Shown: positions 14,460 through 32,742 of the stretch, one piece after another
Position numbering within the stretch: the stretch's first letter is position 1
How the letters are laid out: every line of letters begins with the position of its first letter
Assembly (NCBI GenBank): GCA_963806185.1
Contig: CAWDXE010000003.1
Location: 256,001 to 320,000, forward strand
Length of the DNA: 64,000 bases
Reading direction: 5' to 3'
Source of the DNA: an uncultured candidate division Zixibacteria bacterium
GTDB taxonomy: Bacteria; Zixibacteria; MSB-5A5; GN15; FEB-12
The notes under the pieces: model-generated
The model's database searches: none
Told to the model about the DNA's origin: nothing
What the model saw: the letters and a program-made list of their open reading frames with translations, nothing else
Position numbers and translations under genes: made by a program

Positions 14460-15119
14460 CTACAGGTCGAAATCGAGAACCGTCTCCGAGACCTCATCAG
14501 CCTGAATCAGGACCTTTCCCAACGGATCGACGACCATAGTTGAACCGCCAAAGACATTAGTTCCGTCGTCACCAACGCTGTTGATCCCTATCATATAGAC
14601 TTTGTTCTCCCGGGCACGCTCAACCAGAAGGTGTCGATAGTCATCAACGCGAACTTTCGGCCACGCCGCCGGGACAAATATCCATTTGGCGCCGGCCTGA
14701 GCCAGTCGGGCGTAAATATCCGGGAAGCGAAGGTCGTAACAGATGGAGACGCCGACGGTACCGAATTCGGCCTTCACAAGGCCGATCTCGGCTCCTGCTC
14801 GGTAGACTTTGTCCTCATTCATACCGGGGAACAGGTTGATCTTCTCGTAGATCTGATACAGCCCCTTGTGGTAGTACAGAAAGGCGTTGAACAGTGCACC
14901 AGTCCTGAGATAGGGGAACCCGGTCATTATTCGGAACGGATACGGCTTAAGCGATGCTAGAAGATCGTCAAAGGGGGTCACCGGCCGCGGCGTGTAGAGA
15001 GCACCTGAGGTCGCGAGTTCGCCAAAAACAATCAACTCCACATCCTGCTTGCCGGCCGCATCCAAATACGGCCGGTAGTCAGTGGAATTTACGTCCTTCT
15101 GAACCAATCGAACTTTCAT
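14460..15119 (-). CDS. Carbon-nitrogen hydrolase (nitrilase superfamily)
   Basis: E (VFGEL), K (YEKINLF) and C (ICYDLRFP) catalytic triad. Start MKVRLVQ at 15119 overlaps the pyrC stop. Confidence 0.88.
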   Translation of the reverse strand: MKVRLVQKDVNSTDYRPYLDAAGKQDVELIVFGELATSGALYTPRPVTPFDDLLASLKPYPFRIMTGFPYLRTGALFNAFLYYHKGLYQIYEKINLFPGMNEDKVYRAGAEIGLVKAEFGTVGVSICYDLRFPDIYARLAQAGAKWIFVPAAWPKVRVDDYRHLLVERARENKVYMIGINSVGDDGTNVFGGSTMVVDPLGKVLIQADEVSETVLDFDL

Positions 15120-16432
15120 TTTGCCTCGTACACAACCCGGCCGTTGAGAATGGTGCGATACACCAGACCGGACAACTTCCAGCCGATAAACGGAGAGTTC
15201 TTGGATTTGGATTGGAAACGGTCGGCACGAACCGTCCACTTCCTGTCCGGGTCGATAATAGTAATATCGGCCGGGCTGCCCTCAGTCAAAGAGCCGCCGG
15301 GCAGATTGAAGATGCGGGCCGGGTTGACCGTCATTTTCCGTATCGCGTCACCCCAGTCGAGAATCCCCTTGTCAATGAGGTAGGTCTTCACCAGTCCGAG
15401 GGTCGTCTCCAGACCAATCATGCCGGACGGCGCCTGGTCGAACTCGCAGTCCTTGCTCTCGTCCGTGTGGGGAGCGTGGTCGGAGGCGATGCAGTCGATC
15501 GTTCCGTCGACCAGTCCTTCAATCACGGCGTCTACATCTTCGCGCGTACGCAGCGGCGGATTGACTTTCAGGCTGGTGTCGAACGCCTTGCCGATCTCTT
15601 CATCGGTGAGTACGAAGTGGTGCGGGCAGGCCTCAGTGGTGACGCTGATGCCCTCGCGTTTCGCCTGACGGACCGCTTCGATCGCCCGACGAGTGGTAAT
15701 GTGCTGGATGTGCAGACGGGCTCCAGTGATACGGCAGAGGGCGATATCGCGAAGCACTGCGATTTCTTCCGCGACCGCCGGAGAACCCTTCACCCCCAGT
15801 TTACTCGACTCGAACGACTCATTCATTACTCCTGAGCCGACAAGGAACTGGTCCTCGGCATGCTGCATAACCGGAATGTTGAACATTCTCGAGTATTCCA
15901 GCGCCCGCCGCATGATTTCAGGATTCTGAACGTAGAAACCGTCATCGGTAATCGAAACGACGCCGACGCCGACCAGATCGCCGATTTCGGACAATTCCTT
16001 GCCCTCGATATTCTTCGTCATCGCGCCCACGACAAACACGCGGGCATCAGCGTTCTTGGCGCGGTCCTGCACAAACTTCACCGTTTCCTGATTGTCGATG
16101 CGAGGATGCGTATTCGGCATGCAGAGCACCGAGGTGAACCCGCCGGCTGCGGCGGCCCGGCAGCCGGACTCGACAGTTTCGGCCGATTCCCGCCCAGGTT
16201 CGCGCAGATGTACGTGGCAATCGATAAGACCGGGCGTGACAAGCTTTCCTTTGGCATCGATAATACAATCATCGGGTACGCGCGCCAACGCTTTTTCGAG
16301 TGCGGCCGATTCCGTTTCGATACCGGCAATCTTGCCGTCACGGATGAGCACGCACGCGTCGCTGGAGAAGCCAAGTGCCGGATCGATGACCCGACCGTTC
16401 TTGATGACCAGATCATAGTTTTGCGTTGCCAT
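15116..16432 (-). CDS. pyrC: Dihydroorotase
   Basis: Start [38 protein letters not shown] and ASDHAPH. Confidence 0.95.
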   Translation of the reverse strand: MATQNYDLVIKNGRVIDPALGFSSDACVLIRDGKIAGIETESAALEKALARVPDDCIIDAKGKLVTPGLIDCHVHLREPGRESAETVESGCRAAAAGGFTSVLCMPNTHPRIDNQETVKFVQDRAKNADARVFVVGAMTKNIEGKELSEIGDLVGVGVVSITDDGFYVQNPEIMRRALEYSRMFNIPVMQHAEDQFLVGSGVMNESFESSKLGVKGSPAVAEEIAVLRDIALCRITGARLHIQHITTRRAIEAVRQAKREGISVTTEACPHHFVLTDEEIGKAFDTSLKVNPPLRTREDVDAVIEGLVDGTIDCIASDHAPHTDESKDCEFDQAPSGMIGLETTLGLVKTYLIDKGILDWGDAIRKMTVNPARIFNLPGGSLTEGSPADITIIDPDRKWTVRADRFQSKSKNSPFIGWKLSGLVYRTILNGRVVYEAK

Positions 16433-17371
16433 TACTCTTCCCCTTCCTCTTTGCGCCCCGACAGAAGATACAGCACCGCCATACGCACTGCCTGACCGTT
16501 GGTAACCTGCTCCAGAATGACCGATTTGTCGCTGTCGGCGACCTCGCTGGTGATTTCCACGCCCCGATTCATCGGCCCGGGATGCATGATGGTGTAATTC
16601 TTGTTCAACCGCCCCAGCCGGTCTTTCGTAATCCCGAACAGATTGGTGTATTCGCGCTGCGACGGGAACAGACCCTGACTGTTGGCGCTCAAGCTGGATA
16701 CGCATGATGTTCACCACATCCGCACCATCCAGCGCTTCGTCGAGATTCGTGTAAATGTCGCAGCCAAAGCGCTCCGCATCGGCGGGAATGAGAGTCGACG
16801 GTCCGCAGAGGGCAACCGACGCCCCCATGGTTTTGAGACCCCAAATGTTGGAACGAGTGACACGCGAGTGTTTGACGTCGCCAACCAGCACGACCCGGAG
16901 GCCGTCAAGCTTCTTGTACTTTCGGCGAATGGTGAACATGTCGAGCAAGCCCTGAGTGGGGTGCTCGTGGGCGCCGTCACCGGCGTTAATGATATTTGCT
17001 TCCATGCATTGGGTGAGGTAATACGGGACACCGGCCGATTGGTGGCGTACAACGACCATGTCGATTTTCATCGCTTCGATGTTCTGCACGGTGTCGCGGA
17101 GGGACTCCCCTTTTTTCACCGAAGAGGTCGCGGCCGTGAAGTTGACGCTGTCGGCGGAGAGACGCTTCTGCGCCAGCTCAAAGGAAATGCGCGTGCGCGT
17201 CGAAGGCTCGTAAAACAGATTGAGCACGGTTATGCCCCGAAGCGTCGGCAGTTTCTTGATGGTCCGGTCGAGCACCTCGCGGAACGACTCCGCCGTATCA
17301 AGAATGAGCTGTATGTCCTGCTTAGGGACACCTTCCAGCCCGAGCAGGTGACGGGACGAAAGTCGGCTCAT
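16432..17371 (-). CDS. pyrB: Aspartate carbamoyltransferase catalytic subunit (one apparent frameshift near 16678)
   Basis: [15 protein letters not shown] and RIQLERQ. The C-terminus ([12 protein letters not shown]...[13 protein letters not shown]) is in the adjacent frame, ORF 16432-16692. Confidence 0.93.
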
Positions 17372-18003
17372 GATTTCCCTCGCTTGGCTTTGGGTGTTGC
17401 TTTCTTTGTGGCCTGTTTTGCTTTGACCGCTGGTCTGGATGTCCGGAGTTCCAGAGACGGTTTGGTGTGCTTGATGACATAAACCTGATCGCGACCCTCC
17501 TTTTCCACGACGGTGAGTACCACCTGGTCGTTTCGGGAGGTGGGAATGTTGACACCGACATAGTCCGCCTTGATCGGTAGTTCGCGGTGGCCACGATCAA
17601 CCAGGACAGCCAATTGAATCGTCCGCGGACGGCCGAAGTCTATTATCTGATCTAGGGCCGCGCGAATGGTTCGTCCGGTGAAAAGGACGTCATCGACGAG
17701 AATGATGTTCTTATTGCCGACTTCGAAGAGTATGTCCGTGCGCTGCACGATAGGCTGCTCCAGCTTGGTGTGAACATCGTCGCGATAAAGGCTGATATCC
17801 ATGAGACCGACAGGGACTTTGACTCCTTCGAGTTCCTGAATAATTTTGGCGACTCGCTTGGCAAGAATTGCACCGCGCGTGAGAATGCCGATGATGGCCA
17901 GTGATTCGGCCCCGGAGTTGTGTTCCAGAATCTCGTGAGCAATGCGCGTGATGGCGCGGCTCACCTTTTTATCGTCGAGGATAACGTCGTAGTGTTCAGT
18001 CAA
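17368..18003 (-). CDS. pyrR: Bifunctional pyrimidine operon regulator / uracil phosphoribosyltransferase PyrR
   Basis: RIAHEILE, DISLYRDD, LVDDVLFTGRTIRAALD and DRGHRELPI. TTG start at 18003 after GGAGG. Confidence 0.96.
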   Translation of the reverse strand: MTEHYDVILDDKKVSRAITRIAHEILEHNSGAESLAIIGILTRGAILAKRVAKIIQELEGVKVPVGLMDISLYRDDVHTKLEQPIVQRTDILFEVGNKNIILVDDVLFTGRTIRAALDQIIDFGRPRTIQLAVLVDRGHRELPIKADYVGVNIPTSRNDQVVLTVVEKEGRDQVYVIKHTKPSLELRTSRPAVKAKQATKKATPKAKRGKS

Positions 18004-18044
18004 ACTTATGCCTCCGTCGCTCGGATCGTAGTGATTGCCAAGGG

Positions 18045-18140
18045 AATAAACAGAGGCCGGGACAAAGCCTTCGCCGCGCAAGCTGAGTTGTGGTCACGAT
18101 TCACACCCTTAGCGACCTCTCCGGATCGCCTTAAAAGGTT
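18045..18140 (-). promoter_or_regulatory. PyrR-binding RNA element and attenuator leader
   Basis: Minus strand AACCUUUUAAGGCGAUCCGGAGAGGUCGCUAAGGG (18140-18106) resembles the PyrR consensus CCUUUAA..ARUCCNGNGAGGYU..AAGG. A short AGGC/GCCU hairpin with a U-rich tail follows. TTGACA lies at 18204-18199. Confidence 0.85.
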
Positions 18141-18220
18141 GCTTTCGGCCGCAGGATGCGGGCCGAATTCGCCGGGAAAATATACGATTTGAAACTGGTG
18201 TCAAGTGTCCGCGAGCGGAT

Positions 18221-19654
18221 TTATCGATTCAGATCAAGTTCCTGTGAGAGCAAGGCTTGCCATGGATACTGCCGGAAGAATTCGGATCGCGAGTAACGAC
18301 GGCCCCGCCCGGCCTCAAGCACCAGTACCTCGTCAGCCAGTGCCCTTACGATTCCCGCCTCGTGGGTGATGATGACCTGTCCCCGGCGCTCATGGCGGAG
18401 AGAGTCGGACAGCTGAATGAACATATGGATGCCGGAGAAGTCGAGCCCGGCCGTGGGTTCGTCGAAAATGATAAATGGCGTTGCCATCGCCAGAGCGACG
18501 GCGAAGGCCAAACGGCGCTTCTCGCCGGTGGACAGGGAAAACGGATCGCGTCGGGCGAGATTCTCGGACTTCACTGCCGTCCCGAGCAACATCAAATCTA
18601 CAGCGGCATCATCAATTGGCAGTCCGAGATTCCGGGGTCCAAGAGCTACCTCCTCGGCGCAGGTGGGAAGGAAGAATTGGCGTTCCGGTTGCTGCAATAC
18701 CGCAGTGATGACCTGGGCACGCCGAGATTTATCGATGACCTTCCCATCTGCGTCGACAAAGGAAATCAATCCGGCCGAGGGCTGCACCAGCCCTGCCAGC
18801 ACATGCCCAAGCGTGCTCTTGCCGGAGCCGGTGGCGCCCACAATACACAGCGTTCTTGCCCGACTCAGGGTCAGATTCAGATCCCCTAGAATGGTACGTC
18901 CACCCAGTTGAACCTCAATGTTTTCCACGTGAATGGATGAGGCCGCGCCGGATTCGACAGAGGATAGCCCGGTGACAAAAGAACTATCATCGGCATATGA
19001 TTTCTCGACACTCGTCAGGACACTATCCGGTGCACCATCTGCGATGATCTGACCGCCGGCCATGACTAGTACTCTGGGGTACTGCCGGGCAACAGGAATT
19101 GACTGGGCAATTCGCAATTCAACAAGACTCGGGTGCTGCGCTCTGATGCGTTCCAACTCTACATTGAGCATCTGTTTGCCTCGCTGATCGAGGAAAGCAT
19201 CCGGTTCGTCCAGAATCAGAATCGACGGCCCACCGACAAGCACTGACGCGAGGGCGACACGCTGTTTCTCACCGCCGGAGAGTTCCGAGCTCAATCGCCG
19301 CAGCAGGTGAGTGATGTCGAACTGCGCGGCCTCGAGATTGATACGCTTTTCAATATCTGGCGTCGGCATGGCCACGTTTTCGAGCCCGAAGGCCAGTTCC
19401 TTTTCCACGGTGACCGCGACCATTTGATTGTCCGGGTTCTGAAAAAGGAAGGCAACGTTTGGCCGATTCCCGGTGGTCTGCTGATTCGGCAGGAGTCCGG
19501 CGATAAACCTCACCAGAGTGGTTTTGCCCGAGCCATTGGCCCCCATGATGCAAACGCGATCCCCCGGATTGAGCTGCAACGAGATATTGTCGAGCGCCGG
19601 CCGTTGGTGCGGACGATACCGGTAGGTGACATGATCGAGCATTATGCTGTTCAT
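18221..19654 (-). CDS. ABC/ECF-type transporter ATPase with two fused nucleotide-binding domains
   Basis: GANGSGKT...FQNPDNQ...LSGGEKQR...LDEP, then GATGSGKST...QQPERQ...LSTGEKRR...FDEPTAGLD. Confidence 0.85.
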   Translation of the reverse strand: MNSIMLDHVTYRYRPHQRPALDNISLQLNPGDRVCIMGANGSGKTTLVRFIAGLLPNQQTTGNRPNVAFLFQNPDNQMVAVTVEKELAFGLENVAMPTPDIEKRINLEAAQFDITHLLRRLSSELSGGEKQRVALASVLVGGPSILILDEPDAFLDQRGKQMLNVELERIRAQHPSLVELRIAQSIPVARQYPRVLVMAGGQIIADGAPDSVLTSVEKSYADDSSFVTGLSSVESGAASSIHVENIEVQLGGRTILGDLNLTLSRARTLCIVGATGSGKSTLGHVLAGLVQPSAGLISFVDADGKVIDKSRRAQVITAVLQQPERQFFLPTCAEEVALGPRNLGLPIDDAAVDLMLLGTAVKSENLARRDPFSLSTGEKRRLAFAVALAMATPFIIFDEPTAGLDFSGIHMFIQLSDSLRHERRGQVIITHEAGIVRALADEVLVLEAGRGRRYSRSEFFRQYPWQALLSQELDLNR

Positions 19655-19687
19655 AAAAAAGCCGGGGTCTGATGCCAGACACCGGCT
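19655..19687 (-). terminator. Rho-independent terminator after gcvPB
   Basis: AGCCGG..GTCTG/CAGAC..CCGGCT hairpin followed by a T tract. Confidence 0.75.
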
Positions 19688-19708
19688 ATCATAGTCAAAT
19701 TCGCAGTC

Positions 19709-21160
19709 TTAGCCAAGATAGTTCACATCGAGATCGCGCGCGGCACCGCTTTCGTCCAGTCGACGGACCGGCGTCGTATGCGGCGCCGAGGTTACCACCT
19801 CGGGGTTGGTCTCCGCTTCGCGGGCGATCTTGATCATCACCTCCGCGAAATAGTCTAGTGAGTCACGGCCTTCCGTCTCGGTCGGCTCGATCATCATCGC
19901 TTCCGGCACTATCAGCGGGAAGTAATTCGTCGGCGCATGGACGCCGAAGTCGAGCAAGCGTTTGGAAATGTCCGAGGTTCGTACGCCCAGTTTCTTCTGC
20001 CGATTGCCCGAGATTACGAATTCGTGCATACATGGCTGCTCATGCGGCAGGTCAAAATCGGCCTTCAGCAGTTCTTTGAGATAGTTGGCATTGATCACGG
20101 CCCATTCGGACGCTTCCCGCAGGCCGTCGCCGCCCAGCGTCTTGATATACGCAAACCCGCGGACCATGTTGGCGAAATTGCCATAGGCAAAATGCAGCCG
20201 ACCGATCGAGTGGGGCCGCTCATAATTGAAGAAAAGCTTGCCGTCATGGTCCTTTTCCAGCACCGGGAAAGGAAGGAATTTCTCCAATTCGGCCGTCACG
20301 CCGATCGCCCCGGCACCCGGGCCGCCGCCGCCGTGGGGTGTCGAAAACGTCTTGTGCAAGTTGAAGTGCATGACATCGAACCCAACGTCACCGGGACGGA
20401 AAATACCCATATGGGCATTCAAATTGGCTCCGTCCATATACACCAAACCGCCGCCCTTGTGCACGATCCGGGCGATTTCCTGTATGTTTTTCTCGAACAG
20501 ACCCAGCGTGTTCGGATTGGTCAACATCATTCCGGCAACCTCGTCATCCATGGCCGCCGCGACAGCCTCGGGAAGGATCATGCCGTCCTCGTCGCACTTG
20601 ACCGTCACCGTCGTGTACCCCACGGAGGCCACCGATGCCGGATTGGTGCCATGTGCCGACTCGGGGATCAGGATCTTTGACCGATTTCGGCCCTTGTGCA
20701 CATGATAGGCACGCATCACCAGAAGTCCGGCAAACTCGCCATGAGCGCCGGCTACCGGCTGAAGTGATATGTGCGGGAAGCCACTGACCTCGCTCAAGTA
20801 CCGCTCCAGGTCCCACATTAACTGCAAACTTCCGGCCGAGGCCGAACAGGGGGTGAGCGGATGATGGTTGGCAAAGCCGCTATAGCTCGCCGCGACATCG
20901 TTGAGCTTCGGGTTATACTTCATCGTGCATGATCCGAGCGGATAGAAACCCTTGTCGATATGGTGATTCTTCACCGACATATTGACAAAATGGCGCATGA
21001 CGGTCGGCTCGCTCACCTCGGGGAGAGCCGCATCCTTGGCGCGACGGTATTTCTCCGGGATAGCGGAAAGAATATCCGCTTCGCCCTTCTTGGTCTCCGG
21101 CAAGGTGTACCCCTTCAATCCCGGGGCCGATTTTTCGTAAATCAAGATCTTTTCATTCAC
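19709..21160 (-). CDS. gcvPB: Glycine dehydrogenase (decarboxylating) subunit 2
   Basis: PLGSCTMKYNP, AHGTNPAS, DGANLNA and HFNLHKTFSTPHGGGGPG (PLP Lys). Confidence 0.96.
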   Translation of the reverse strand: MNEKILIYEKSAPGLKGYTLPETKKGEADILSAIPEKYRRAKDAALPEVSEPTVMRHFVNMSVKNHHIDKGFYPLGSCTMKYNPKLNDVAASYSGFANHHPLTPCSASAGSLQLMWDLERYLSEVSGFPHISLQPVAGAHGEFAGLLVMRAYHVHKGRNRSKILIPESAHGTNPASVASVGYTTVTVKCDEDGMILPEAVAAAMDDEVAGMMLTNPNTLGLFEKNIQEIARIVHKGGGLVYMDGANLNAHMGIFRPGDVGFDVMHFNLHKTFSTPHGGGGPGAGAIGVTAELEKFLPFPVLEKDHDGKLFFNYERPHSIGRLHFAYGNFANMVRGFAYIKTLGGDGLREASEWAVINANYLKELLKADFDLPHEQPCMHEFVISGNRQKKLGVRTSDISKRLLDFGVHAPTNYFPLIVPEAMMIEPTETEGRDSLDYFAEVMIKIAREAETNPEVVTSAPHTTPVRRLDESGAARDLDVNYLG

Positions 21161-21199
21161 TGCAACAAGTCCTCACACCGGCAAATTCCCGGTGATTCT

Positions 21200-22064
21200 C
21201 TATTTCTTCTCATCCGCCTTAGGCGGGTTCTTCCATTTCTCTATCTGTTTGGCGACCCATTCGATCTCATCCTTCTCATTCGGATAGCGCTCGGCGAACC
21301 CCTCGAAATGAGAGATCGCTTTCGCCGTGTCGCCCATACGCACATACACGAGGCCAACCCATTCATCGGCATTCACGGCAAATGACGAGTTGGGAAAGTC
21401 CTTCAAGACGCCCTGGAACAACTCCAGTGCTTTATCATAGTTCTTCGCCCGGCGCTGCATGTCGGCGATGGCCATCCGACTTTCGCCCGCCAGAGAGTCC
21501 TTCTCATTGACCGCCACTACTCTGCTATACCAGGTCATCGCGTCGTCCGGCATGCCGCGATATTTGTACTTGTCCGCAATCTTGAACGCGAGCTCCCGGC
21601 TGGAGTCAGCCTTTGCTTTGCCCAGCAGGTCGTCGAGCGTGCCAACGCCGTTGCGGTAGTCCTTAATCGTTTGCAAGAACTCCGGTGGAGGCAAGTACCC
21701 GACGATCCGATCGATTTCATTACCCTTGTTATCCATCAGAACAATGGTGGGATACGCGCTCACCCGATATTTCTGGGCGATTAGAGTATCCTTCTCGGCG
21801 TTAATCTTGGTCAGCACCGCCTCGTTCGAAAAGTAGCTGATATTGCTGGAGTCTACGAACACGACCGTGTCCATCACCTTGCACCAGCTTCACCACTCGG
21901 TGAAAAACTTCAAGGCCATCGGCTGGTTTGCCTGTGCCGCCGCCTTCAGTCCCTCTTCATATGAAGTATAGTATTGCGCTTTGCCGGCTGTGTTGACCAA
22001 TTCGGCTGTCGCCGTTCCGGCGAGCAGAAGTGTCGCCAGAGTCACTAATCCCGGTCGTCCGCAT
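21200..22064 (-). CDS. Secreted thioredoxin-like + TPR protein; putative selenoprotein (UxxC, in-frame TGA at 21892-21890)
   Basis: ORFs 21890-22129 and 21200-21877 are in frame across TGA: KFFTEW-U-SWCKVMDTV, versus KFYTDWCSWCKVMDTV in the paralog. AGGAGG-ATG at 22064 (MRTT) needs a 1-nt indel near 22051 to join the signal-peptide frame. Confidence 0.8.
21845..21889 (-). promoter_or_regulatory. Candidate bacterial SECIS element
   Basis: After UGA there is a lower stem GCUGG/CCAGC and an upper 8-bp stem AUGGACAC/GUGUUCGU. The apical loop GGUC starts 23 nt after the UGA. Confidence 0.7.
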
Positions 22065-22131
22065 GCTGCCTCCTGTAGCGAAACTCGCCATCTTTGCTCT
22101 ATACCCGCGAGCGGCGCGGGTGCTTTCATCT

Positions 22132-22998
22132 TTACGACTTCTTGGCGTCCGCCGGTGCCGGCGGATTCTTCAGTTTGTCGATCTGTTTCTTGACGTACCC
22201 GATTTCTTCCGAATTCGGATACTTGGTCAGGAACGACTCCATCTGCTGTACTGCCGCTGTCGTGTCGCCCTTTTTCACCAGAACGAGGCCGATCCAGATA
22301 TCGGCGTTTTCGGCAAACGGAGTACCAGCGAAATCGGTGGCCATGGCGCGGAAGGCGCTGAGGGCACCGTCATAGTCTCTCTTCTGGCGAAACATCTCGG
22401 CCAGCGCCATCCGGCTCTCCCCGGCCAGCGAATCCTTTTCGTTGCCGGTGATCACCGTCTGATACCATTTCTTCGCATCAGTTTCGGCGCCGCGGTATTT
22501 GTACTTTTCCGCGATCTGAAACGCCAGATTGCGGTCGGCATTCGTCTTGGTCTGATTCAACAGGTCATCGAGCGTTCCTTTGCCGGCCCGGTAATCCTTC
22601 ACCGTCTGCAGAAAGTCGGTCGGCGGCAGGTAGCCGACGATGCGGTCGATCTCGTTTCCCTTGCCGTCGACCAGGACGACTGTCGGATAGACGTTGACCG
22701 CATACTTCCTGGAGATCAGAGTATCCTTCTCCGCATTGGTCTTAAACATGACCATGTCGTTTGTGAAGTAGGCGATGTTATTGGCCTCTACCAATGTCAC
22801 GGTGTCCATGACCTTGCACCAGCTGCACCAGTCCGTGTAGAACTTGATGGCGATAGGCTGATTCTTTTGGGCTGCGGCCGTCATGGCCTCATCGAGATTG
22901 GTGTAATAGGGTGCGTGTCCGGGTTCGGAAACAAGTTCGGCCGATGCCGCACAGCAGAAGGTGAGCATCACCAGCAGAACCAGTGTCAACGTACGCAT
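22132..22998 (-). CDS. Secreted thioredoxin-like (WCSWC) + TPR protein; Cys paralog of the adjacent gene
   Basis: Signal peptide MRTLTLVLLVML...ASAE, WCSWC, cis-Pro loop VYPTVV and C-terminal TPR-like helices. Confidence 0.88.
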   Translation of the reverse strand: MRTLTLVLLVMLTFCCAASAELVSEPGHAPYYTNLDEAMTAAAQKNQPIAIKFYTDWCSWCKVMDTVTLVEANNIAYFTNDMVMFKTNAEKDTLISRKYAVNVYPTVVLVDGKGNEIDRIVGYLPPTDFLQTVKDYRAGKGTLDDLLNQTKTNADRNLAFQIAEKYKYRGAETDAKKWYQTVITGNEKDSLAGESRMALAEMFRQKRDYDGALSAFRAMATDFAGTPFAENADIWIGLVLVKKGDTTAAVQQMESFLTKYPNSEEIGYVKKQIDKLKNPPAPADAKKS

Positions 22999-23029
22999 AC
23001 CGCTTCTCCTTCGTATCGTGCAGACAGTC

Positions 23030-23405
23030 TCATTCTTCGTCTTCGTCCATCAGTCCTTCGCCCAGAACCGCATCAAGAATCGCCTCGGCGTCGTCACGGA
23101 ACTCCCGGGGAACCAGAACGGCCTGCCCGAACAGCGTTTGCTGGGGGAGCATCGGCGGCCGTGCTCTGTCCGCTATTGGCGAACTGGGCGGAGAGAATCA
23201 TGCAAGGGATGTTGCTGGCGGTGAGGGCGTCGCGGGCTATGCCGGTTTGCACGTCATTGACCATGAACCCAACCTCGACCCAGGAGTCATCGGGAATGAT
23301 CGCCGCCGTCTGGCGTGGTGACCGCTCCACCAACGGTCGATGGCACTCCGGACAGGTCATGAGACCGGCCTGATATTCATGGGAACATTGGGTGCAATAT
23401 ACCAT
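23030..23405 (-). CDS. Zinc-ribbon + DUF2007-like small protein (apparent frameshift)
   Basis: MVYCTQC...TCPEC...DSWVEV...ARDALTASNIPC. The C-terminus VPREFRDDAEAILDAVLGEG is in a shifted frame. Confidence 0.65.
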
Positions 23406-23410
23406 CGACT

Positions 23411-23758
23411 TTACTCTTCCTTGGGCTGCCACTGCTCGCCGAGGGCCATGGCCAACAGCTCTTCAGCTTCCTCGGCTTGATCGGCCGGAACTGACACTTC
23501 AAACGCCGCCGATTCGCTGCGATAGATCGGGTTGAGCGGTAATCCGGCATTGCCGAAAAAGCCCGATCGCGACATCACAACGTTTGGTATCTCATACGAG
23601 GTCAGCACTTCACGGGCAAAATCGGCCGAGAATTTGTCCAATACGTATCCCAGCACAATCCACCCTTGTTCTTCACTATCGTCCATCGCCGTCCCGCAGA
23701 CGTGACATGTGGTCGTCCCTTCTCGCCATTCGTTCTTACAGGCGGGACAAGACACCAT
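23411..23758 (-). CDS. Zinc-ribbon + DUF2007-like small protein
   Basis: CPACKNE...TCHVCG, GWIVLG...AREVLTSYEIP...FEVSVPADQAEEAEELL; paralogous to the neighbouring gene. Confidence 0.75.
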   Translation of the reverse strand: MVSCPACKNEWREGTTTCHVCGTAMDDSEEQGWIVLGYVLDKFSADFAREVLTSYEIPNVVMSRSGFFGNAGLPLNPIYRSESAAFEVSVPADQAEEAEELLAMALGEQWQPKEE

Positions 23759-25095
23759 TGTGCGCCAACTCCTTCAAGCCAACGACCAGGCGCGCCACAT
23801 CGCCCGCAGTGCGCTTCTCGGTGGTCGCAACTATGAGACAATTCTCCAGACCAGGATACCAACGCCCGGCGTCGATTCCGGGCAGAATCTTCTTATCGCG
23901 AATCATTGCCAGGATAACCTGCTCCGCGGGGACGGGGGTCCTCACCGCAAACTCCCTGACAAACGGCCCTTTGAAGTACAATTCGAAGCCATCCAGCTTG
24001 CCAATGTCCTTCGCTGCATTCTGGGCGGCCTCGGCAGATAACAGGGCGACCTGCTTCAGCCCGGTCTTGCCCAGTAGGCTCATGTAGACGGACGCGGCGG
24101 TCGCACACAGAGCCTGATTGGTGCAAATATTGGAGGTCGCCTTTTCGCGACGGATATGTTGTTCTCGAGTTTGCAGGGTCAGCACGAATCCGGTCTTGCC
24201 GTCTACGTCCTTGGTGCGTGCGGCCAGCCTTCCCGGCATCATGCGGACCAGCTCTTTCTTGATGGCAAAGAAACCAAGGAGGGGACCGCCGTACGATGGC
24301 GAAATGCCCAATGGCTGTCCTTCACCAAATGCGATGTCAGCACCGCAGTCAGCCGGCGTCTTGAGAATCGCCTGAGCGATCGGGTCAACGCTCATGATCA
24401 ACTTGGCACCCACCTTGTGAGTGATGGTGGCGACTCGATCTATTTCCTCCAGCAGGCCAAAGAAGTTCGGCTGGCCGATCAGTACGCAGGCTGTGTTCTC
24501 ATCCACCGCGTCTTCCAGTCGATTCAGATCAGTCAGACCGTCTTTCATCGGGACAGTCAGGATCTCAAACGGGCGGGCGGACAAATAGGTGTCAATGACC
24601 TGCCGATAGACCGGATTGACGGTTGCCGATACGACAATTTTCTTGCGCCGCGTCACGGCATGGGCCAAAAGAACCGCCTCGGCCGAAGCCGTTGCCCCGT
24701 CGTAAAGCGAAGCATTGGCGATATCCATGCCGGTCAGCCGGCAAATATGAGTCTGGAATTCATAGATCGCCTGCAACGTGCCCTGCGCGACTTCAGGTTG
24801 GTAGGGCGTGTAGGCAGTCATGAACTCGGGGCGACCGATGATCGTGGCTAGCGCCGCAGGAATAAAATGATCATATACGCCGCCGCCGGCAAAACAGGTC
24901 AGCCCGCGTCTGGTTCTGCTCCGAAAGTTGCTTGATTTCATCGAGCAATTCCATTTCGGACAGAGCCGGTATGTTCAGGGAACGATCGAGACGCAGATTC
25001 CCGGGAATCGCCTCAAGCAAGTCCTCGAACTTCTTGACGCCGATCCGGCCGAGCATCTGCTGACGGTCCCGATCGGAACTCGAGATAAAGGCCAT
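23736..25095 (-). CDS. gcvPA: Glycine dehydrogenase subunit 1 (apparent frameshift near 24920)
   Basis: N-terminus MAFISSSDRDRQQML (25095), then FAGGGVYDH, TAYTPYQPE and REQHIRREKATSNICTNQ. Confidence 0.94.
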
Positions 25096-25157
25096 GGTGT
25101 CTTGTTTCTCTCTTTCGCTTCCGCAGCATTGCGCGGAAGATGTCCCAGTTCAGCGAA

Positions 25158-25543
25158 TTAGTGTTCTGCCACTAACTTCTTGTAACTGTCAGCCGTAAGC
25201 AATTGTTCTACTTCAGCGCGGTTGGCCACCTCGACTTTGATCATCCACCCGGAGCCATACGGATCCCGGTTGACGACCATTGGATCGCCGTCAAGTGCGG
25301 AGTTGATTTCGATCACGCGACCGGCCACCGGAGCATACATCTCCGATACCGCCTTGACCGCTTCAATGGTGCCGAAATCTCCCCATCTGTGCTCACCTGG
25401 TCGCCGATGCCCGGCAATTCGATGAACACAATATCTCCCAGTTCTTTCTGGGCAAAATCGGTGATGCCGATGGTTGCGGTATTGCCAGTCACGCGCACCC
25501 ATTCGTGCTCCTTGGTGTACCTCAGCTCAGATGGAATATTCAC
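25158..25543 (-). CDS. gcvH: Glycine cleavage system H protein (apparent frameshift near 25385)
   Basis: YTKEHEWV...[15 protein letters not shown], then [11 protein letters not shown] (lipoyl Lys) and DPYGSGW in a second frame. Confidence 0.93.
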
Positions 25544-25585
25544 GAAACGCCTCCTCGACTATCAGAATCGGTAATGGTCTGCATT

Positions 25586-27023
25586 TCAGCTTCCGGCCCT
25601 GTGGTCGCTGTCACTCCCGGGTGCTTGCTCCCCTTTTTTTTTAAGGGTGACGGCCGTTTTCGGGGCCGGCAGCACCACTTTCTGGAAATGTGTCTCAACA
25701 AAAGAGGTGTCATACTTGCCGGCAACGAAATCAGGGTCCTGGAGTATCTGCTTGTGGTATTCGATGGTCGTTGGCACGCCCTGGACTACAAATTCGTCGA
25801 GCGCATGCCGCATTTTCATGATCGCTTCCGGCCGTGTCCGCGCCCGAACTATCAGCTTGGCGATCATCGAATCGTAGTACGGCGGAATCACATACCCGGC
25901 GTAGATGGCCTTGTCGACCCGCACGCCCGGTCCGCCCGGAATGTGCATCGCCTCGATGCGGCCAGGGCCGGGACGGAAATCATGTTCCGGATCTTCGGCA
26001 TTGATCCGACATTCGATGGCATGCCACTTGGGCTGTCAATTCGGCCTGGTTGAATTCGATCTTCTCGCCCAGCGCGACCCGGAACTGCTCGCGGACCAGG
26101 TCGACCTCGTACGCTTCTTCGGTAATCGGGTGCTCGACCTGGATACGCGTGTTCATCTCCATGAAGTAGAAACTGCCGCTCTCGTCGACCAGGCACTCGA
26201 TCGTGCCGACGCCGAGATAACCGATCGACCGGCAGGCCAATAGCGCTGCCTCACCCATCCGCTGACGCAGTTCCGTCGGTCATGAGCGGCGACGGCGTTT
26301 CCTCGATCAGCTTCTGGTGGCGACGCTGGATCGAGCAATCGCGCTCGCCGAAGTGATAGTAGTTGCCGTGCTTGTCGCCGATCACCTGGATTTCGATGTG
26401 ATGCGGATTGACGATGACCTTTTCGAGATACAGATCGGGATTGGAGAAGGCATTGGCTGCTTCGGTCGAGGCGATATGGAAAGCCGCGTTCGAGTTCGGA
26501 CACATCGCGACAGACGCGCATCCCCTTGCCGCCGCCGCCGGCGACCGCTTTGAGAATCACGGGATATCCGACTTTCTCGGCGATCTCGGATGCTTCTTCA
26601 AAAGTGGCGACCTTGCCGTCGGATCCGGGTATCACCGGTACGCCCGCTTTGCGCATGGTCTCTTTGGCCGCGATCTTGTCCCCCATGGTGCGAATCTGCG
26701 TCGGGCGTCGGGCCGATAAAGGTAATGCCGCAAGATTCGCAGATTTCGGCAAAGTCGGCGTTTTCGGCCAGGAAACCATACCCGGGGTGAATTGCGCCGG
26801 CGTTGCAGACTTCGGCCGCCGAGATGATTCGCTTGAAATCCAGATATGACTGGGAGGAGGCGGGCGGACCGATGCAGACGTCTTCATCGGCAAATCGGAC
26901 GTGCAGGGCATCGCGATCGGCTTCGGAATAGACGGCCACCGTCGCGAGGCCCAGTTCCCGGCAGGCGCGAATGATACGTAGGGCGATTTCGCCGCGATTG
27001 GCAATCAATACTTTGTTAAACAA
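25586..27023 (-). CDS. accC: Acetyl-CoA carboxylase biotin carboxylase (several apparent frameshifts)
   Basis: Pieces across frames: [56 protein letters not shown] and [12 protein letters not shown]. Confidence 0.93.
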
Positions 27024-27209
27024 AGAGTTTACCTTACTCCCTTCGGCTGATTTCTACCGCTGTATACGCAGCGTAAGCGGAAAGTATAACACATGCACCA
27101 CATCATCACAAGCCCCAATGGCAAAATTGGCCGCTTCGTCCGCGTCGCAGTCAACCATCTACCTGACAATGAATTGCACGAGAAATGAGGACTCGCAGAA
27201 GTCGAGCAT

Positions 27210-27241
27210 AAAAAAAGCCCGGCACACGTGGGCGGTCGGGC
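27210..27241 (-). terminator. Terminator after the pilT-like gene
   Basis: GCCCG...CGGGC stem followed by T7. Confidence 0.6.
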
Positions 27242-27263
27242 TGCATTGTCATGTCGGATCCAA

Positions 27264-28425
27264 TCAGAATTTGCCCAAGCGTGTTCGGCGAATCGCGATC
27301 GTTCTCGCTCGCCGGCCCCCTTTGTCGCCGCCGTTTCGTCCCAACGATCGGCCGCCCCGGTGATCCCGTTCAGCCGCAGATCGAAATCGTCGGGGTTGGT
27401 GGCGCTGTTGATCGCCTCTTCAAACGAGATCATACCCGGCTTGTGCAGCTTCATGATCGCCTGATCAAATGTCTGCATGCCGTACTGCGACTCCGCCCTG
27501 GGCCATCAGCTCCGGAATATCGGCTGTCTTGTCCGGCTCGATGATGCAGTCACGGACTGCGGCGGAGTTGATCATGACTTCCAGCGCCGGGACTCGACCG
27601 GGCATATCGGAGCGCGTCAACAGGCGCTGGCAGACGATCGCCTTGAGCGTACCGGCCAGCAGCAGACGAATCTGCTGATGCTGGTGCGGCGGGAAGAACG
27701 AAATGATACGGGTGATGGTCTCCACCACGTTCAGCGTGTGCAGCGTGGTCAGCACCAGGTGACCGGTGTCGGCCGCGGTCAGCGCGATCGACATCGTCTC
27801 CAGATCACGGACCTCACCGATGAGGATAACGTCGGGGTCCTGACGAAACGCGTGACGCAGCGCCGAGGCAAAAGTCTCGGTATCGCCGCCGACTTCGCGC
27901 TGGGAGATGATCGATTTCTTGTCGCGGTAGATATACTCGATCGGGTCTTCGACGGTCAGGATATTGCACGACCGGTTGGCGTTCATTTCTTCGATGATCG
28001 CCGCCAGCGTGGTCGATTTACCCGAACCGGTGGTTCCGGTGATGATGATCAGGCCGCGCTGTTCCGAGGCGAGTTTCTTGATGATCGGCGGCAGATTCAA
28101 GTTCTTCGAACGACGGCACCAGCGTGTTGACCGCACGGATGGCGATACCGGTGGTACCGCGCTGGCGGAACAGGTTGATACGGAAACGGCCCAGTTTCGC
28201 CACCGAAAGGGCGAGGTCCATTTCGTTCTTGCGGTAGAATCGCTCGAGCTGCTTTTCGTTGAGGATCTGCTGTACGATCTGATCCATCGTGTCGATGGTG
28301 ATCGGATCGGTAGCGATCTGCTCGAGCATACCGTTGACCCGCAGGTGCGGACGGACGCCGACGCGAATATGCAAGTCGGAGGCCTTGCGGTTGAGCATCT
28401 CAACCAGCATCTGCTTGAGATTCAT
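27264..28425 (-). CDS. Type IV pilus retraction-family ATPase (PilT/PilU-like), with apparent frameshifts; 3' end approximate
   Basis: ASDLHI, RFRINLFRQRG, GTTGSGKSTT, EDPIEY, RQDPDVILIGEVRD, TGHLVLTTLHT and GMQTFDQ. Confidence 0.9.
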
Positions 28426-28467
28426 GGACGTCCCTTTCGCTTGCGACGAAGTCAGACGAGAGAGGGA

Positions 28468-28958
28468 TCAGCCGTTGGGATCAATCAAGAACAGGACTTG
28501 GCCGAATTCGACTGGTTTGCCGTTCTCAACGAGACATCTTGACGACGCGCCCGCTCACCTCTGATTCGATCTCGTTCATCAGCTTCATCGCTTCGACGAT
28601 GCAGACCACCTGTCCGGCGGTAATGCGCTCGTTGAGCGAGACATACGACGGGGCGTCCGGCGCCGGCGCGGCGTAGAACGTTCCGACCATCGGTGACTTG
28701 ATCTCCACATACCGGCTCGTGTCTTCACCCGAAACCGGGGCGGCAGGGGCATTGGGCGCAACCGGAGCAACAGCGACCGGAGCATGGCGCGTAGGCCGCC
28801 GGGGCCATGACCACAGGCGCGCTCATACCATGCCCATTAGAGTTCATCGGCGATTTCCGCATGATCTTGATTTTTCGACCCCAGCGGGAAACCTCGAGCG
28901 ACTCTATCTCCGATTCTTCGACCAGTCGAATAAGCTTCTTGATATATTTGTCATTCAT
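28468..28958 (-). CDS. accB: Biotin carboxyl carrier protein (apparent frameshifts)
   Basis: MNDKYIKKLIRLVEESEI, IKSPMVGTFY, IVEAMKLMNEI (biotinyl Lys) and PVEFGQVLF. Confidence 0.92.
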
Positions 28959-29063
28959 ATTGACGCTCCTTACCTGCCGCAGCACCAACCAACCCTCCTG
29001 CCGGGGCAGGCAATTGCAATCCAGAGAATGCCTTGCAGGGCATTTGAGTATACCCGCCGGGTC

Positions 29064-30137
29064 TTATAGCTCCAACAATTTTTTTTCGGCCCGGTTGAGC
29101 ACCTGGCCGCCCGTCCGGGTCACCACGACATCGTCTTCAATCCGGACCCCACCCCATCCGTCGAGGTAGATTCCGGGTTCGATAGTTACTACATTGTTGA
29201 CCTGCAGCGTGTCCTTGGAAAGCGACGAAACCCTCGGTCCCACATGGACATAGTAGCCAATACCGTGACCCGTGCCATGACCAAAATGCTTGCCAAAACC
29301 TGCCTTCGTAATAAGGGTACGGCAGGCGGCATCAACATCCTTCCCCGGCACTCCGGCCTTGACCTTCTTTATACCTGCCAGCTGAGCCCTAAGTACGATA
29401 TCGTAGATTTTCTTCTGTCGGGCGTTGGCCTTCCCTACCACCACCGTCCGGGTAATGTCCGAGACATATCCATTGAAAGTCGCCCCGAAATCAAACGTAA
29501 TAAAGTCCCCGTTTTCGACTTTTTTGGGCGAGGCGACCCCGTGAGGCATCGCCGAACGGTAGCCGGACGCGACAATCGTCTCAAAGGCCGGCTTCTGCGA
29601 ACCGAGCATTAGCATCTGATATTCCAGCTCTGCCGCCAGTTCGCTCTCCCTCACTCCGGGACGCACCAGATTCAAAATCCGTCCAAAAGCTGTGTCAGAG
29701 ATTCCGCAAGCCTTCTTGATATTGGCAAGTTCGACGCTGTCTTTCACCCATCCCATGTCAGCCAGCAGGGTGTCGGCGGAAAGGAGTATGGCGTCGGGAA
29801 GAGTCTTCTGCAGTCGTTCACGCGCAGACACGGTCAGGTAGTCACCCGCAAAGCCAAACTTGAGATTCTTGCCGTGGAGCGGCGCGACGTCCTTCAATCC
29901 ACCCAGTGCTTCGCCGACAGCCTGGCTAATCTTGGCCGCCTTGACCTGCTGTCGCGCCTGATACGTGAAGCGCGAGTCGGTGAGAAAGAAGGCTGCCGTG
30001 CGCGTGATCGCCAGCACGCCGGCGTCGCCGGTGAAACCACAGATGTACCGGATATGGTCGGGGTGCGTGATAATGAGGCCGTCGAGATTTTCCTGCTGCA
30101 TTTTCTTCCGCAGCACGTTCATGCGTAGCTGTGACAT
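29064..30137 (-). CDS. Xaa-Pro aminopeptidase (M24)
   Basis: DFGA...YVSDITRT, HGTGHGIG, TIEPGIY and GVRIEDD. Confidence 0.92.
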   Translation of the reverse strand: MSQLRMNVLRKKMQQENLDGLIITHPDHIRYICGFTGDAGVLAITRTAAFFLTDSRFTYQARQQVKAAKISQAVGEALGGLKDVAPLHGKNLKFGFAGDYLTVSARERLQKTLPDAILLSADTLLADMGWVKDSVELANIKKACGISDTAFGRILNLVRPGVRESELAAELEYQMLMLGSQKPAFETIVASGYRSAMPHGVASPKKVENGDFITFDFGATFNGYVSDITRTVVVGKANARQKKIYDIVLRAQLAGIKKVKAGVPGKDVDAACRTLITKAGFGKHFGHGTGHGIGYYVHVGPRVSSLSKDTLQVNNVVTIEPGIYLDGWGGVRIEDDVVVTRTGGQVLNRAEKKLLEL

Positions 30138-31004: not shown

Positions 31005-31297
31005 AGGACTGGCTGGAGACGTATGCTTTGTCGGGGTATGCCTTTCAAACGGAAGCCGACGGGACGTTTGAGTCGTACGGCGGACCGACGCTGATTTTGT
31101 GTGGCCGGCAGGACAATATTGTCGGGTACGAGGATCAGTGGAGATTGATGGCGACGTATCCGCGAGCATCGTATGTCGTATTGGATCGGGCTGGGCACAA
31201 TCTGCCGGTGGAGGCACCGGAGGCGTTTCAGACACTGGTGACGGGATGGTTGCGGGGGGATTGGATGGGACACGATGGGAATAGGAGCAATCAATGA
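31005..31297 (+). pseudogene. C-terminal remnant of an alpha/beta hydrolase
   Basis: PTLILCGRQDNIVGY...SYVVLDRAGHNLPVE contains the Asp and His triad region. The N-terminal nucleophile half is absent, and the recognisable part begins at the REP hairpin. Confidence 0.7.
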
Positions 31298-32742
31298 GTA
31301 GTCAATCGCAACAGGACATCGATTTCTTCTTCGATTTCTTTCAAGCCAGGCTTGAATTCGTGAGGTCGCATTGCATAGATCGTATCGAAGGTGTCATTCT
31401 TCTTTGTTCATATGTGGATTCCTTAGCGGGATACAGATATGGAGGCACTACTGGCCCTGCTCGCTTCAAGAAATTCCTCATCGAGGATACCTTGTATTCG
31501 GAGACTTGGCGCAAGGTGAGCTTGATTCTTCTTCGGCAGTACTTGGAGAAGAAAGAACTCAAGTTATACGCGAAGGCAATAGAAGTGCTAAACCAGCTTG
31601 GTGCTAGGACCTCCAATTTCCGGGATTTGAATTATAACCCTGACATTCCTCTCGAATTGCTCCTGAACGAATTCAGTAAATCACTCTCTCGCAAGGAGAT
31701 CACCTTTTTCCAGAAGGACTTTGAACGATTTCAGTATTCGGCAATACTTTGGAATTGCTATCGAAACTCATCGGTGCACGAAAGCGCAGTAGGGCTGAAG
31801 AAGGCGATGAACTTAACAGATCAAAGCGAACCTTTCTATTCAAATGAACATTCGGGACACGACGGCAGTATCTTAGATCACACTCGGTTCGACATTCCAA
31901 TGCAGTTCTTGGTCCGTTCCATCGAAAGTGGTCTGCAGAAACTCAGAGAATTGGCTAATGCGGGGCAATGGCACCCGGAGGTTTCGGTACCGTACGATGA
32001 CCCCATATACGTGTCGCAGTCTAGCGCTGATGAAAGGGACAATGCAAAGATTGGCTATCCTCGAATGATTACTAAACCGTTTAGATCACTACTTGCAGAT
32101 TTGGGAAACTTACTCGAACAGGCCAAAACACATCACGGATTATTCGAGACTACGGGAGAAGGAATTCATAGATGGCGTGAAGGAGCAATGTCGAGAAGTG
32201 CAATAGTGACCTCGGTATTCTTCTTGGAATCCATAGTGAATTCTATTGTAAAGGACTTTTCGATCCGAGAACCGTATCAACTGACCGAGACGCTTTTGAA
32301 GCGTTACAACCTATTGCATCAACGATTTGATCGCCTTCCACTAATTGATCGCGTCTTCCTAGTACCATATATCTGTTCATCAAATGAAGGGAACTTGGTA
32401 TCAGGATTCTTCGAGAAGAGATCAAAGGAGTTCCTGTCACTTCAGGAACTCATTGCAATTCGTGACGGGTTTGCCCACAGCCGACCTGTCAAGCGTCGGA
32501 TGACCATTACGAAGTCTAGTGAAGGAGAATATATTGCGGACGATCAGTTCAAAGAGAATTTCTGGCCCCATACACAGATTCCGAAAGATATCTTCATTAT
32601 AGAATGGAGCAATGCGATAACTGCGAAGCAAATTGTCGACTGGGCTGTAGAGCAACTCGACCGATTTCTTGAGGGCCGCATCGCTCAAAGGAACTGGATG
32701 AACGATGAGTTGATTGAGTTTGATCCTAATGTGCGATCGTGA
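31294..32742 (+). CDS. Hypothetical 482-aa protein with two putative HEPN (RxxxxH) domains
   Basis: AGGAG RBS; YRNSSVHE (R157-H162) and IRDGFAHS (R390-H395); helical character; AT-richer than the flanks (25/60 GC in 31321-31380). Confidence 0.75.
   Translation: MSSQSQQDIDFFFDFFQARLEFVRSHCIDRIEGVILLCSYVDSLAGYRYGGTTGPARFKKFLIEDTLYSETWRKVSLILLRQYLEKKELKLYAKAIEVLNQLGARTSNFRDLNYNPDIPLELLLNEFSKSLSRKEITFFQKDFERFQYSAILWNCYRNSSVHESAVGLKKAMNLTDQSEPFYSNEHSGHDGSILDHTRFDIPMQFLVRSIESGLQKLRELANAGQWHPEVSVPYDDPIYVSQSSADERDNAKIGYPRMITKPFRSLLADLGNLLEQAKTHHGLFETTGEGIHRWREGAMSRSAIVTSVFFLESIVNSIVKDFSIREPYQLTETLLKRYNLLHQRFDRLPLIDRVFLVPYICSSNEGNLVSGFFEKRSKEFLSLQELIAIRDGFAHSRPVKRRMTITKSSEGEYIADDQFKENFWPHTQIPKDIFIIEWSNAITAKQIVDWAVEQLDRFLEGRIAQRNWMNDELIEFDPNVRS

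What the first reader, a model, noticed from the sequence alone, without database searches (positions are those of the whole stretch)
21200..22998. Tandem Cys/Sec paralog pair: an exported thioredoxin-TPR selenoprotein (UxxC) beside its CxxC twin
Seen: the downstream gene reads ACC GAG TGG TGA AGC TGG TGC AAG GTG ATG (TEW-U-SWCKVM). The TGA aligns exactly with the first Cys of WCSWC in the upstream paralog, and homology continues on both sides in one frame. Both proteins have signal peptides and TPR-like C-termini. Known: Sec typically replaces the N-terminal catalytic Cys of thioredoxin-fold CxxC motifs. Inference: this is a periplasmic redox or folding pair, with a Sec enzyme and a Cys back-up or specialised partner. 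Gene callers would split it into two meaningless ORFs.
Basis: partly seen in the sequence, partly recalled or inferred. Interest (0 to 1): 0.82.

Follow-up and report, generated by a model that had tools for sequence, protein, structure and literature searches.

The report
Overlooked exported selenium thioredoxin of Zixibacteria
Two neighbouring genes encode look-alike thioredoxin-TPR proteins, one with cysteine and one with an in-frame UGA codon plus a conserved RNA hairpin that very likely inserts selenocysteine, revealing a likely exported redox protein found in nearly all Zixibacteria genomes searched whose selenium form is stored cut short in protein databases.

Summary
Observation confirmed. 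The TGA (21890-21892, - strand) aligns with the first Cys of the upstream paralog's CxxC (60% identity). The genome has selA, selB, selD and tRNA-Sec. Of 97 homologous genes read from 90 Zixibacteria genomes, 56 have TGA at this column, 38 Cys, 3 Ala/Ser and none TAA/TAG. A SECIS-type hairpin (GGUC loop, 23 nt after UGA) is complete in 30 of 30 same-family TGA genes and 2 of 20 Cys genes, with compensatory pairs. The real finding is wider than the pair: a gene matched in 245 of 251 phylum genomes, usually single-copy between gcvPA and gcvPB, that switches between Sec and Cys while the Sec machinery stays. Database records of the Sec form are N-truncated 'TPR proteins'. The tandem pair is a rare local duplication; a back-up role is untested. 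One caveat: the Sec copy's best start codon is one base out of frame, probably an assembly indel. Likely function: envelope disulfide reductase/isomerase with a TPR client-binding arm. New variant of a known kind.

The parts
22132..22998 (-). Cys paralog: 20-residue signal-like leader, thioredoxin domain with W-C-S-W-C and cis-Pro loop, TPR domain (288 aa)
   Evidence: AlphaFold2 model pLDDT 95.7
22825..22827 (-). Cys58 codon (TGC) of the upstream copy, the column that is TGA downstream
   Evidence: spanned without differences by a short-read contig of run X3, record 11
21200..22064 (-). Sec paralog, thioredoxin (UxxC)-TPR; likely start ATG 22062-22064
22069..22074 (-). AGGAGG ribosome-binding site ahead of the likely start
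   Evidence: sequence
22050..22052 (-). G run at or near which the signal-peptide region is one base out of frame; likely assembly indel
   Evidence: 12 frame changes in 7 neighbouring genes
21890..21892 (-). in-frame TGA, predicted selenocysteine
21881..21883 (-). second (resolving) Cys of UxxC
   Evidence: Cys in 94 of 97 homologues
21855..21874 (-). SECIS-type hairpin inside the coding sequence; GGUC loop at 21863-21866, 23 nt after the TGA
23411..23758 (-). neighbour: zinc-ribbon/DUF2007-like small protein, conserved at this place
23057..23432 (-). neighbour: second zinc-ribbon small protein, frameshifted near its end in this assembly
23736..25095 (-). gcvPA (upstream context; one frameshift in this assembly)
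   Evidence: gene name read from the sequence and recalled knowledge, not from a family scan
19709..21160 (-). gcvPB (downstream context)
   Evidence: gene name read from the sequence and recalled knowledge, not from a family scan

Best explanation
The downstream gene very likely encodes a real selenoprotein, a likely exported thioredoxin-TPR oxidoreductase whose attacking residue would be selenocysteine (UxxC), and the upstream gene is a diverged Cys copy that likely arose by a local duplication. Shown: TGA/Cys alternation at one column, a conserved covarying hairpin behind the TGA, complete Sec machinery, domain architecture, conserved position between gcvPA and gcvPB. Inferred: SelB bound to the hairpin delivers Sec-tRNA at the UGA; the protein crosses the inner membrane by its signal peptide (some orthologues as lipoproteins); the Sec/Cys at the start of the helix after the second strand attacks disulfides or oxidised thiols of envelope proteins held by the TPR groove; the second Cys resolves the adduct; a CcdA/DsbD-type membrane protein returns electrons from cytoplasmic thioredoxin. 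In this genome the co-oriented Cys copy would keep the activity going when selenium is short and the UGA terminates, without any regulator (untested).
For: selA, selB, selD (itself with one TGA) and tRNA-Sec over their cut-offs in G000; selA in 58 of 61 and tRNA-Sec in 54 of 61 related genomes. 56 TGA, 38 Cys, 3 Ala/Ser, 0 TAA/TAG among 97 genes. Hairpin complete in 30 of 30 family-f1 TGA genes against 2 of 20 Cys genes; 99.5% of cells paired, 12 cells with two-sided changes, 0 of 500 shuffles as high, slid controls 27-52%; family f3 uses another loop at the same 23-nt distance in 9 of 9 TGA genes. It fits the published bacterial SECIS model (PMC13188914 section 5). Model: thioredoxin fold followed by TPR helices, active residue at the start of the helix at 41-50; the cis-Pro is invariant in 107 sequences. 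Domain matches to DsbD-gamma, DsbH and thioredoxins, and to BamD/CpoB TPRs. Three CcdA/DsbD membrane-domain matches over the cut-off in G000; no DsbB match in this 82%-complete genome. dN/dS between the two copies about 0.14, dS near saturation. The two copies group together with moderate support (87/85, with G016's long-branched Cys copy inside); sisterhood is not rejected (p-AU 0.32).
Against: No read or contig of this organism was seen across the TGA or the frameshift, and no RNA or protein data. The Sec copy's signal peptide is out of frame as assembled. No substrate is known; the direction of the redox reaction rests on fold relatives and genome content only. 4 of 97 homologues have lost one or both active-site residues (AxxC, CxxS, two SxxS), so redox chemistry is not always needed. 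A loose scan by the published SECIS model missed 8 of 56 TGA genes and rang in 8 of 41 non-TGA genes. Signal peptides were judged by hydropathy and regex, not by a trained predictor.
Confidence: 0.72

Rival explanations
1. The protein is mainly a TPR scaffold or holdase of the envelope (BamD/CpoB-like), and the Sec/Cys site is an accessory protective or sensing switch rather than a turnover enzyme.
For: Near-universal in the phylum (245 of 251) although 4 of 97 copies lack a full motif; in G086 the operon copy is SxxS while a displaced copy has UxxC. Top Foldseek hit is YbbN/CnoX, whose E. coli form is SxxC and a holdase (PMC8129009).
Against: 93 of 97 copies keep U/CxxC, and selection has held a SECIS-type hairpin fixed to the base in 30 genomes, which argues that the chemistry matters.
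Confidence: 0.17
2. The family is a real selenoprotein family, but in this genome the Sec copy is damaged: the one-base shift in its signal region is real, so it is not made or not exported and the Cys copy has replaced it.
For: The shift is in the assembly; no read covers it; Sec-to-Cys replacement is common in the family.
Against: 12 frame changes in 7 neighbouring genes, among them accB and accC, point to an indel-rich assembly. The hairpin and the rest of the frame are intact, dN/dS is about 0.14, and without the extra base the leader would have the same 20-residue length as the paralog's.
Confidence: 0.06
3. The protein serves the glycine cleavage system in whose gene cluster it sits, for example by keeping lipoyl or enzyme thiols reduced.
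For: gcvPA and/or gcvPB flank it in 61 of 62 loci and 28 of 32 further loci.
Against: All 97 copies carry an N-terminal hydrophobic segment, 29 a lipobox, while glycine cleavage is cytoplasmic (established knowledge). The cluster is a long housekeeping run (acc, gcv, ABC ATPase, pyr), and displaced Sec copies sit away from it.
Confidence: 0.04
4. The TGA is a sequencing error or a nonsense mutation.
For: The assembly is error-rich.
Against: The same TGA stands in 55 other genes from independent genomes, never TAA/TAG, with a hairpin tied to it.
Confidence: 0.01

Closest known systems
Bacterial 'thiol:disulfide interchange protein' selenoproteins (PF13098, UxxC) and Sec-thioredoxin (PF00085, UxxC), Table 1 of PMC13188914
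   Same: Thioredoxin fold; Sec replaces the first Cys of CxxC; best Pfam hit is PF13098 above its cut-off.
   Different: Carries a signal peptide and a C-terminal TPR domain; no row of the 119-family table names a TPR fusion; no NCBIfam selenoprotein model reaches its cut-off (TsoB 61.6 of 805 bits). The architecture of the listed PF13098 representative could not be checked.
CnoX/YbbN chaperedoxin (PDB 3QOU)
   Same: Thioredoxin domain followed by a TPR domain, similar length; best Foldseek hit (E 4e-9); some sources label homologues 'thioredoxin-like negative regulator of GroEL'.
   Different: 15% identity, TM-score 0.30, RMSD 23 A over the whole; CnoX works in the cytoplasm with GroEL/DnaK (PMC8129009), this family has export signals; no Sec form is mentioned in the parts of that review I read.
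DsbH and DsbD-gamma periplasmic thiol reductase domains
   Same: Closest single-domain folds and profiles; exported.
   Different: Below NCBIfam cut-offs (DsbH 35.2 of 190 bits); no TPR domain; Cys only as far as I recall.
Unstudied ~280-aa thioredoxin-TPR proteins of Acidobacteriota and others (ESM Atlas clusters)
   Same: Same Pfam set and length, feature scores 0.96-0.98.
   Different: Automatic names only; their Sec status was not read.

Membership tests
Bacterial selenoprotein | In-frame UGA aligned with Cys in homologues | tested here: met
   56 TGA / 38 Cys / 3 other of 97
Bacterial selenoprotein | SECIS hairpin 16-37 nt after UGA, 3-9 nt loop with G in its first two places, energy at most -7.5 kcal/mol (PMC13188914) | tested here: met
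   23 nt, GGUC loop, 8-bp stem, -19.4 kcal/mol for the 60-nt stretch, z -2.2; covariation
Bacterial selenoprotein | selA, selB, selC, selD in the genome | tested here: met
Bacterial selenoprotein | Selenium in the protein product | not testable with these tools
   needs 75Se labelling or MS
[quoted passage not shown] | PF13098 above the gathering cut-off | tested here: met
   49.2 and 32.5 bits against 27
[quoted passage not shown] | U/CxxC at the start of a helix and a cis-Pro loop | tested here: met
[quoted passage not shown] | Same domain architecture and orthology with the catalogued representative WP_011366075.1 | not tested
   that sequence was not fetched
CnoX/YbbN | N-terminal thioredoxin plus C-terminal TPR domain | tested here: met
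CnoX/YbbN | Cytoplasmic protein without export signal | tested here: not met
   hydrophobic leader in 97 of 97, lipobox in 29 (simple test)
CnoX/YbbN | Whole-protein structural match to YbbN | tested here: not met
   TM-score 0.30, RMSD 23 A, 15% identity
CnoX/YbbN | Holdase activity and hand-over to GroEL/ES | not testable with these tools
   no assay; GroEL is cytoplasmic
DsbH | NCBIfam NF043050 cut-off | tested here: not met
   35.2 of 190 bits
TsoB selenoprotein | NCBIfam NF045694 cut-off and rhodanese/DsbD fusion | tested here: not met
   61.6 of 805 bits, thioredoxin part only

The most novel reading that the evidence does not exclude
A phylum-wide, selenium-dependent envelope chaperedoxin: a periplasmic counterpart of CnoX that holds envelope clients with its TPR arm and repairs their thiols with selenocysteine. 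Lineages repeatedly split it into a Sec copy and a Cys or redox-dead copy (tandem in G000 and G016, dispersed in families f7 and f10), giving a regulator-free switch set by selenium supply.
Probability: 0.2. Interest if true: 0.8.

Novelty: new variant of a known kind. Interest (0 to 1): 0.55.

Why it matters
It adds a selenoprotein subfamily that is close to a core gene of a whole uncultured phylum and that annotation currently stores without its active site. In most selenoprotein families the Sec forms are rare and the Cys forms widespread (PMC1794560, passages); here Sec is the commoner state among the genes read (56 of 97), and 25 of the 26 Cys genes lie in genomes that still have selA. 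That gives many natural Sec/Cys pairs on one scaffold, two of them side by side in one gene cluster, to test the open question of why Sec is kept (PMC13188914 section 8). The hairpin also visibly constrains the protein: its compensatory pair changes the encoded residues.

Tried and rejected
Reads: six DNA runs hold small shares, no RNA holder listed. Contigs of four runs match parts of both genes at 98-100% but none of this organism spans the TGA or the frameshift, so these two places remain unchecked by reads. The search for related loci with the single protein returned only distant thioredoxin domains of other phyla. A genome-wide scan for other TGA+hairpin genes returned mostly shadow frames and was dropped. 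Glycine reductase B was not found in G000, but nothing rang in the controls either, so this is uninformative. G101's '3 TGA' is one Sec codon plus stops beyond the gene's end. A search with a 43-aa N-terminal piece gave one hit and nothing useful. TGA=Trp recoding rejected: the genome has a tRNA-Sec(TCA) and a separate tRNA-Trp(CCA), and TGA ends many genes. Assembly duplication rejected: the copies are 64% identical in DNA and both are covered by near-identical short-read contigs. The zinc-ribbon neighbours hit the 'DG' selenoprotein model far below its cut-off (23.8 and 19 of 130 bits); not pursued as selenoproteins. No complex was predicted because no binding is claimed. Earlier findings of the scan: three look-ups, nothing shown. 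The 64-row tree is the quick tree, the careful one did not finish.

Full report
Observation. On the - strand, 22132-22998 encodes a 288-aa protein with a hydrophobic leader, W-C-S-W-C and a helical C-terminus. The next frame, ending at 21200, reads TEW-TGA-SWCKVM with the TGA at 21890-21892. The two are 60% identical over 271 residues and the TGA falls on the first Cys. Pfam gives Thioredoxin_2 above its cut-off and TPR repeats for both (for the downstream gene only the part after the TGA was scanned). Intact ORFs of four relatives laid on the window show 12 frame changes in 7 neighbouring genes (accC 4, accB 2, pilT 2, pyrB, gcvH, gcvPA and a zinc-ribbon gene 1 each; gene names read from the sequences, not from a family scan), so an assembly indel is the likely cause. 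No read covers the place.

Sec machinery. G000 has selA, selB and selD over their curated cut-offs, selD with one in-frame TGA, and a tRNA-Sec with a TCA anticodon. selA was found in 58 of 61 and tRNA-Sec in 54 of 61 genomes of the order, G000 included.

Family. The upstream protein matches 61 of 61 genomes of the order and 245 of 251 of the phylum at E 1e-15. Named homologues are labelled Zixibacteria. I read the codon in 97 genes from 90 genomes: 64's matches and 33 chosen; these were picked, not drawn at random. Left out: two matches cut before the site (G057 and G159 second pieces), three short thioredoxin-only matches and one duplicate locus. Result: 56 TGA, 38 TGC/TGT, 3 Ala/Ser, no TAA or TAG; the second Cys is present in 94. 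All 97 have a hydrophobic segment 45-64 residues before the site and 29 a lipobox, by a simple hydropathy and regex test. Outside the phylum, 5 of 81 genomes of the phylum of G255 (a record titled Deferribacteres KSB1) matched at E 1e-28, two with a TGA inside, and one of these was read as UxxC. Atlas clusters of the same architecture are commonest in Acidobacteriota.

SECIS. In family f1 a hairpin with a GGUC loop starts 23 nt after the UGA. It is complete in 30 of 30 TGA genes (the divergent off-cluster copy of G036 was left out) and in 2 of 20 Cys genes; a third Cys gene keeps the loop and codons. One pair alternates G-C (19), C-G (10) and U-G (1), which changes the encoded residues on both sides. 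The pair count gives 99.5% paired cells and 12 cells with two-sided changes, 0 of 500 shuffles as high, slid controls 27-52% (the structure was taken from these sequences and kin are not independent). Family f3 has a six-base loop at the same distance in 9 of 9 TGA genes and not in its one Cys gene. The window's Cys copy lacks the hairpin. A loose scan with the published model is weaker: 48 of 56 TGA genes and 8 of 41 others. Cys genes that keep the hairpin resemble the remnant SECIS elements described in PMC1794560 (passages).

Evolution of the pair. The quick tree of 64 rows needs 16 Sec/Cys changes, at least 6 forced by well-supported branches. 25 of those 26 Cys genes lie in genomes with a selA match, so the switch does not follow loss of the machinery. 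Tandem copies were seen in G000 (Cys then Sec), G016 (Sec then Cys), G100 (Cys, Cys) and G159 (first copy cut off, second Cys), among 93 family-f1 genomes with a match. The two G000 copies group with support 87/85, with G016's long-branched Cys copy inside; sisterhood is not rejected (p-AU 0.32), not shown. dN/dS is about 0.14 with dS near saturation. In family f7, 13 of 14 genomes have two or more matches; in the two read fully (G063, G064) the copy in the gcv cluster is Cys and a displaced copy is Sec, and in G086 (f10) the cluster copy is SxxS and the displaced copy Sec. So Sec-plus-non-Sec coexistence recurs, but a single copy is the rule.

Context. gcvPA and/or gcvPB flank the gene in 61 of 62 loci and 28 of 32 further loci, usually with one or two zinc-ribbon/DUF2007-like genes in front. 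I read this as old gene order rather than function, since the protein looks exported.

Mechanism. The AlphaFold2 model of the mature Cys copy (pLDDT 95.7, 107 sequences) is a thioredoxin fold with the active residue at the start of a helix, followed by TPR helices. Foldseek ranks YbbN/CnoX first (E 4e-9, TM 0.30, RMSD 23 A), then DsbD-gamma, DsbH, thioredoxins, BamD and YbgF; the sequence search of solved structures gives single-domain matches only. G000 has three CcdA/DsbD membrane-domain matches over the cut-off and no DsbB match, at 82% completeness. I therefore favour a reducing or isomerising envelope enzyme that binds clients through its TPR arm. This step is inference; no substrate is known.

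What is known. Table 1 of PMC13188914 (sections 5, 8 and parts 1-2 of 3 of section 7 read) lists 119 families, among them PF13098 UxxC and PF00085 UxxC thioredoxin-fold proteins, none named as a TPR fusion. No NCBIfam model reaches its cut-off. In the protein collection 58 of the 120 listed hits start after the Sec column; all 8 TGA genes that I could match to records (9 records) are truncated and all 12 matched Cys genes are whole; two named truncated records are called 'tetratricopeptide repeat protein'. Searches listed no paper whose title or opening abstract describes the family; of the listed papers I opened only those cited here. PMC8318568 mentions Zixibacteria only as a recovered genome (passages). 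BSepDB (PMC13326102; passages and a search of its one supplement, which was cut when stored) has 7 Zixibacteria rows in its genome list, so the gene may already sit there under a generic thioredoxin name; the database itself could not be searched, and the paper on selenoprotein neighbourhoods cited by the review was not read. PMC8129009 (parts 1-2 of 3 read) defines CnoX as a thioredoxin-TPR holdase working with GroEL; this family works like it in architecture but fails membership on export and overall fold.

Verdict. A real selenoprotein gene (about 0.97 for the Sec reading alone), member of a near-universal Zixibacteria family that databases truncate. UxxC thioredoxins are known, so this is a new variant of a known kind. 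The tandem pair is a rare local duplication whose back-up role is plausible and untested. Interest 0.55.

Noticed in passing
window 14600-29700: The assembly is indel-rich: 12 frame changes in accC, accB, pilT, pyrB, gcvH, gcvPA and a zinc-ribbon gene, one of which makes a false pyrB-pyrC fusion ORF (15116-17371). Other frameshift findings in this genome should be doubted.
   Followed up: yes
window 23057-23758: Two small zinc-ribbon/DUF2007-like genes conserved between gcvPA and the thioredoxin-TPR gene across the order; weak hits to the 'DG' zinc-ribbon selenoprotein model, far below cut-off.
   Followed up: partly
window 22102-22122: G+C-rich hairpin between the two paralogs, with no U run on the coding strand; could be a processing or stability element.
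   Followed up: no
L010 (G000:C1:545493-546416): selD is itself a predicted selenoprotein (one in-frame TGA) with a hairpin about 20 nt downstream.
   Followed up: partly
L189 and L192 (G086); L187, L188, L193, L194 (G063, G064): The copy in the gcv cluster is SxxS or Cys while a displaced, diverged copy carries Sec.
   Followed up: partly
L047, L052, L046 (G024, G003, G029): Cys genes that keep the SECIS-type loop and codons, likely recent Sec-to-Cys changes; G003 (85% complete) is the one without selA and tRNA-Sec matches.
   Followed up: partly
L220, L221 (G331, G300): TGA-bearing thioredoxin-TPR homologues outside Zixibacteria, in the phylum of a KSB1 record, with no gcv neighbours found.
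   Followed up: partly
window 31294-32742: A 482-aa + strand ORF with AT-richer, foreign-looking sequence amid - strand housekeeping genes; not examined.
   Followed up: no
L203 (G000:C7:385501-389067): A CcdA-type gene lies about 2.6 kb from a thioredoxin gene (C7:384069), a candidate electron donor route to the periplasm.
   Followed up: partly
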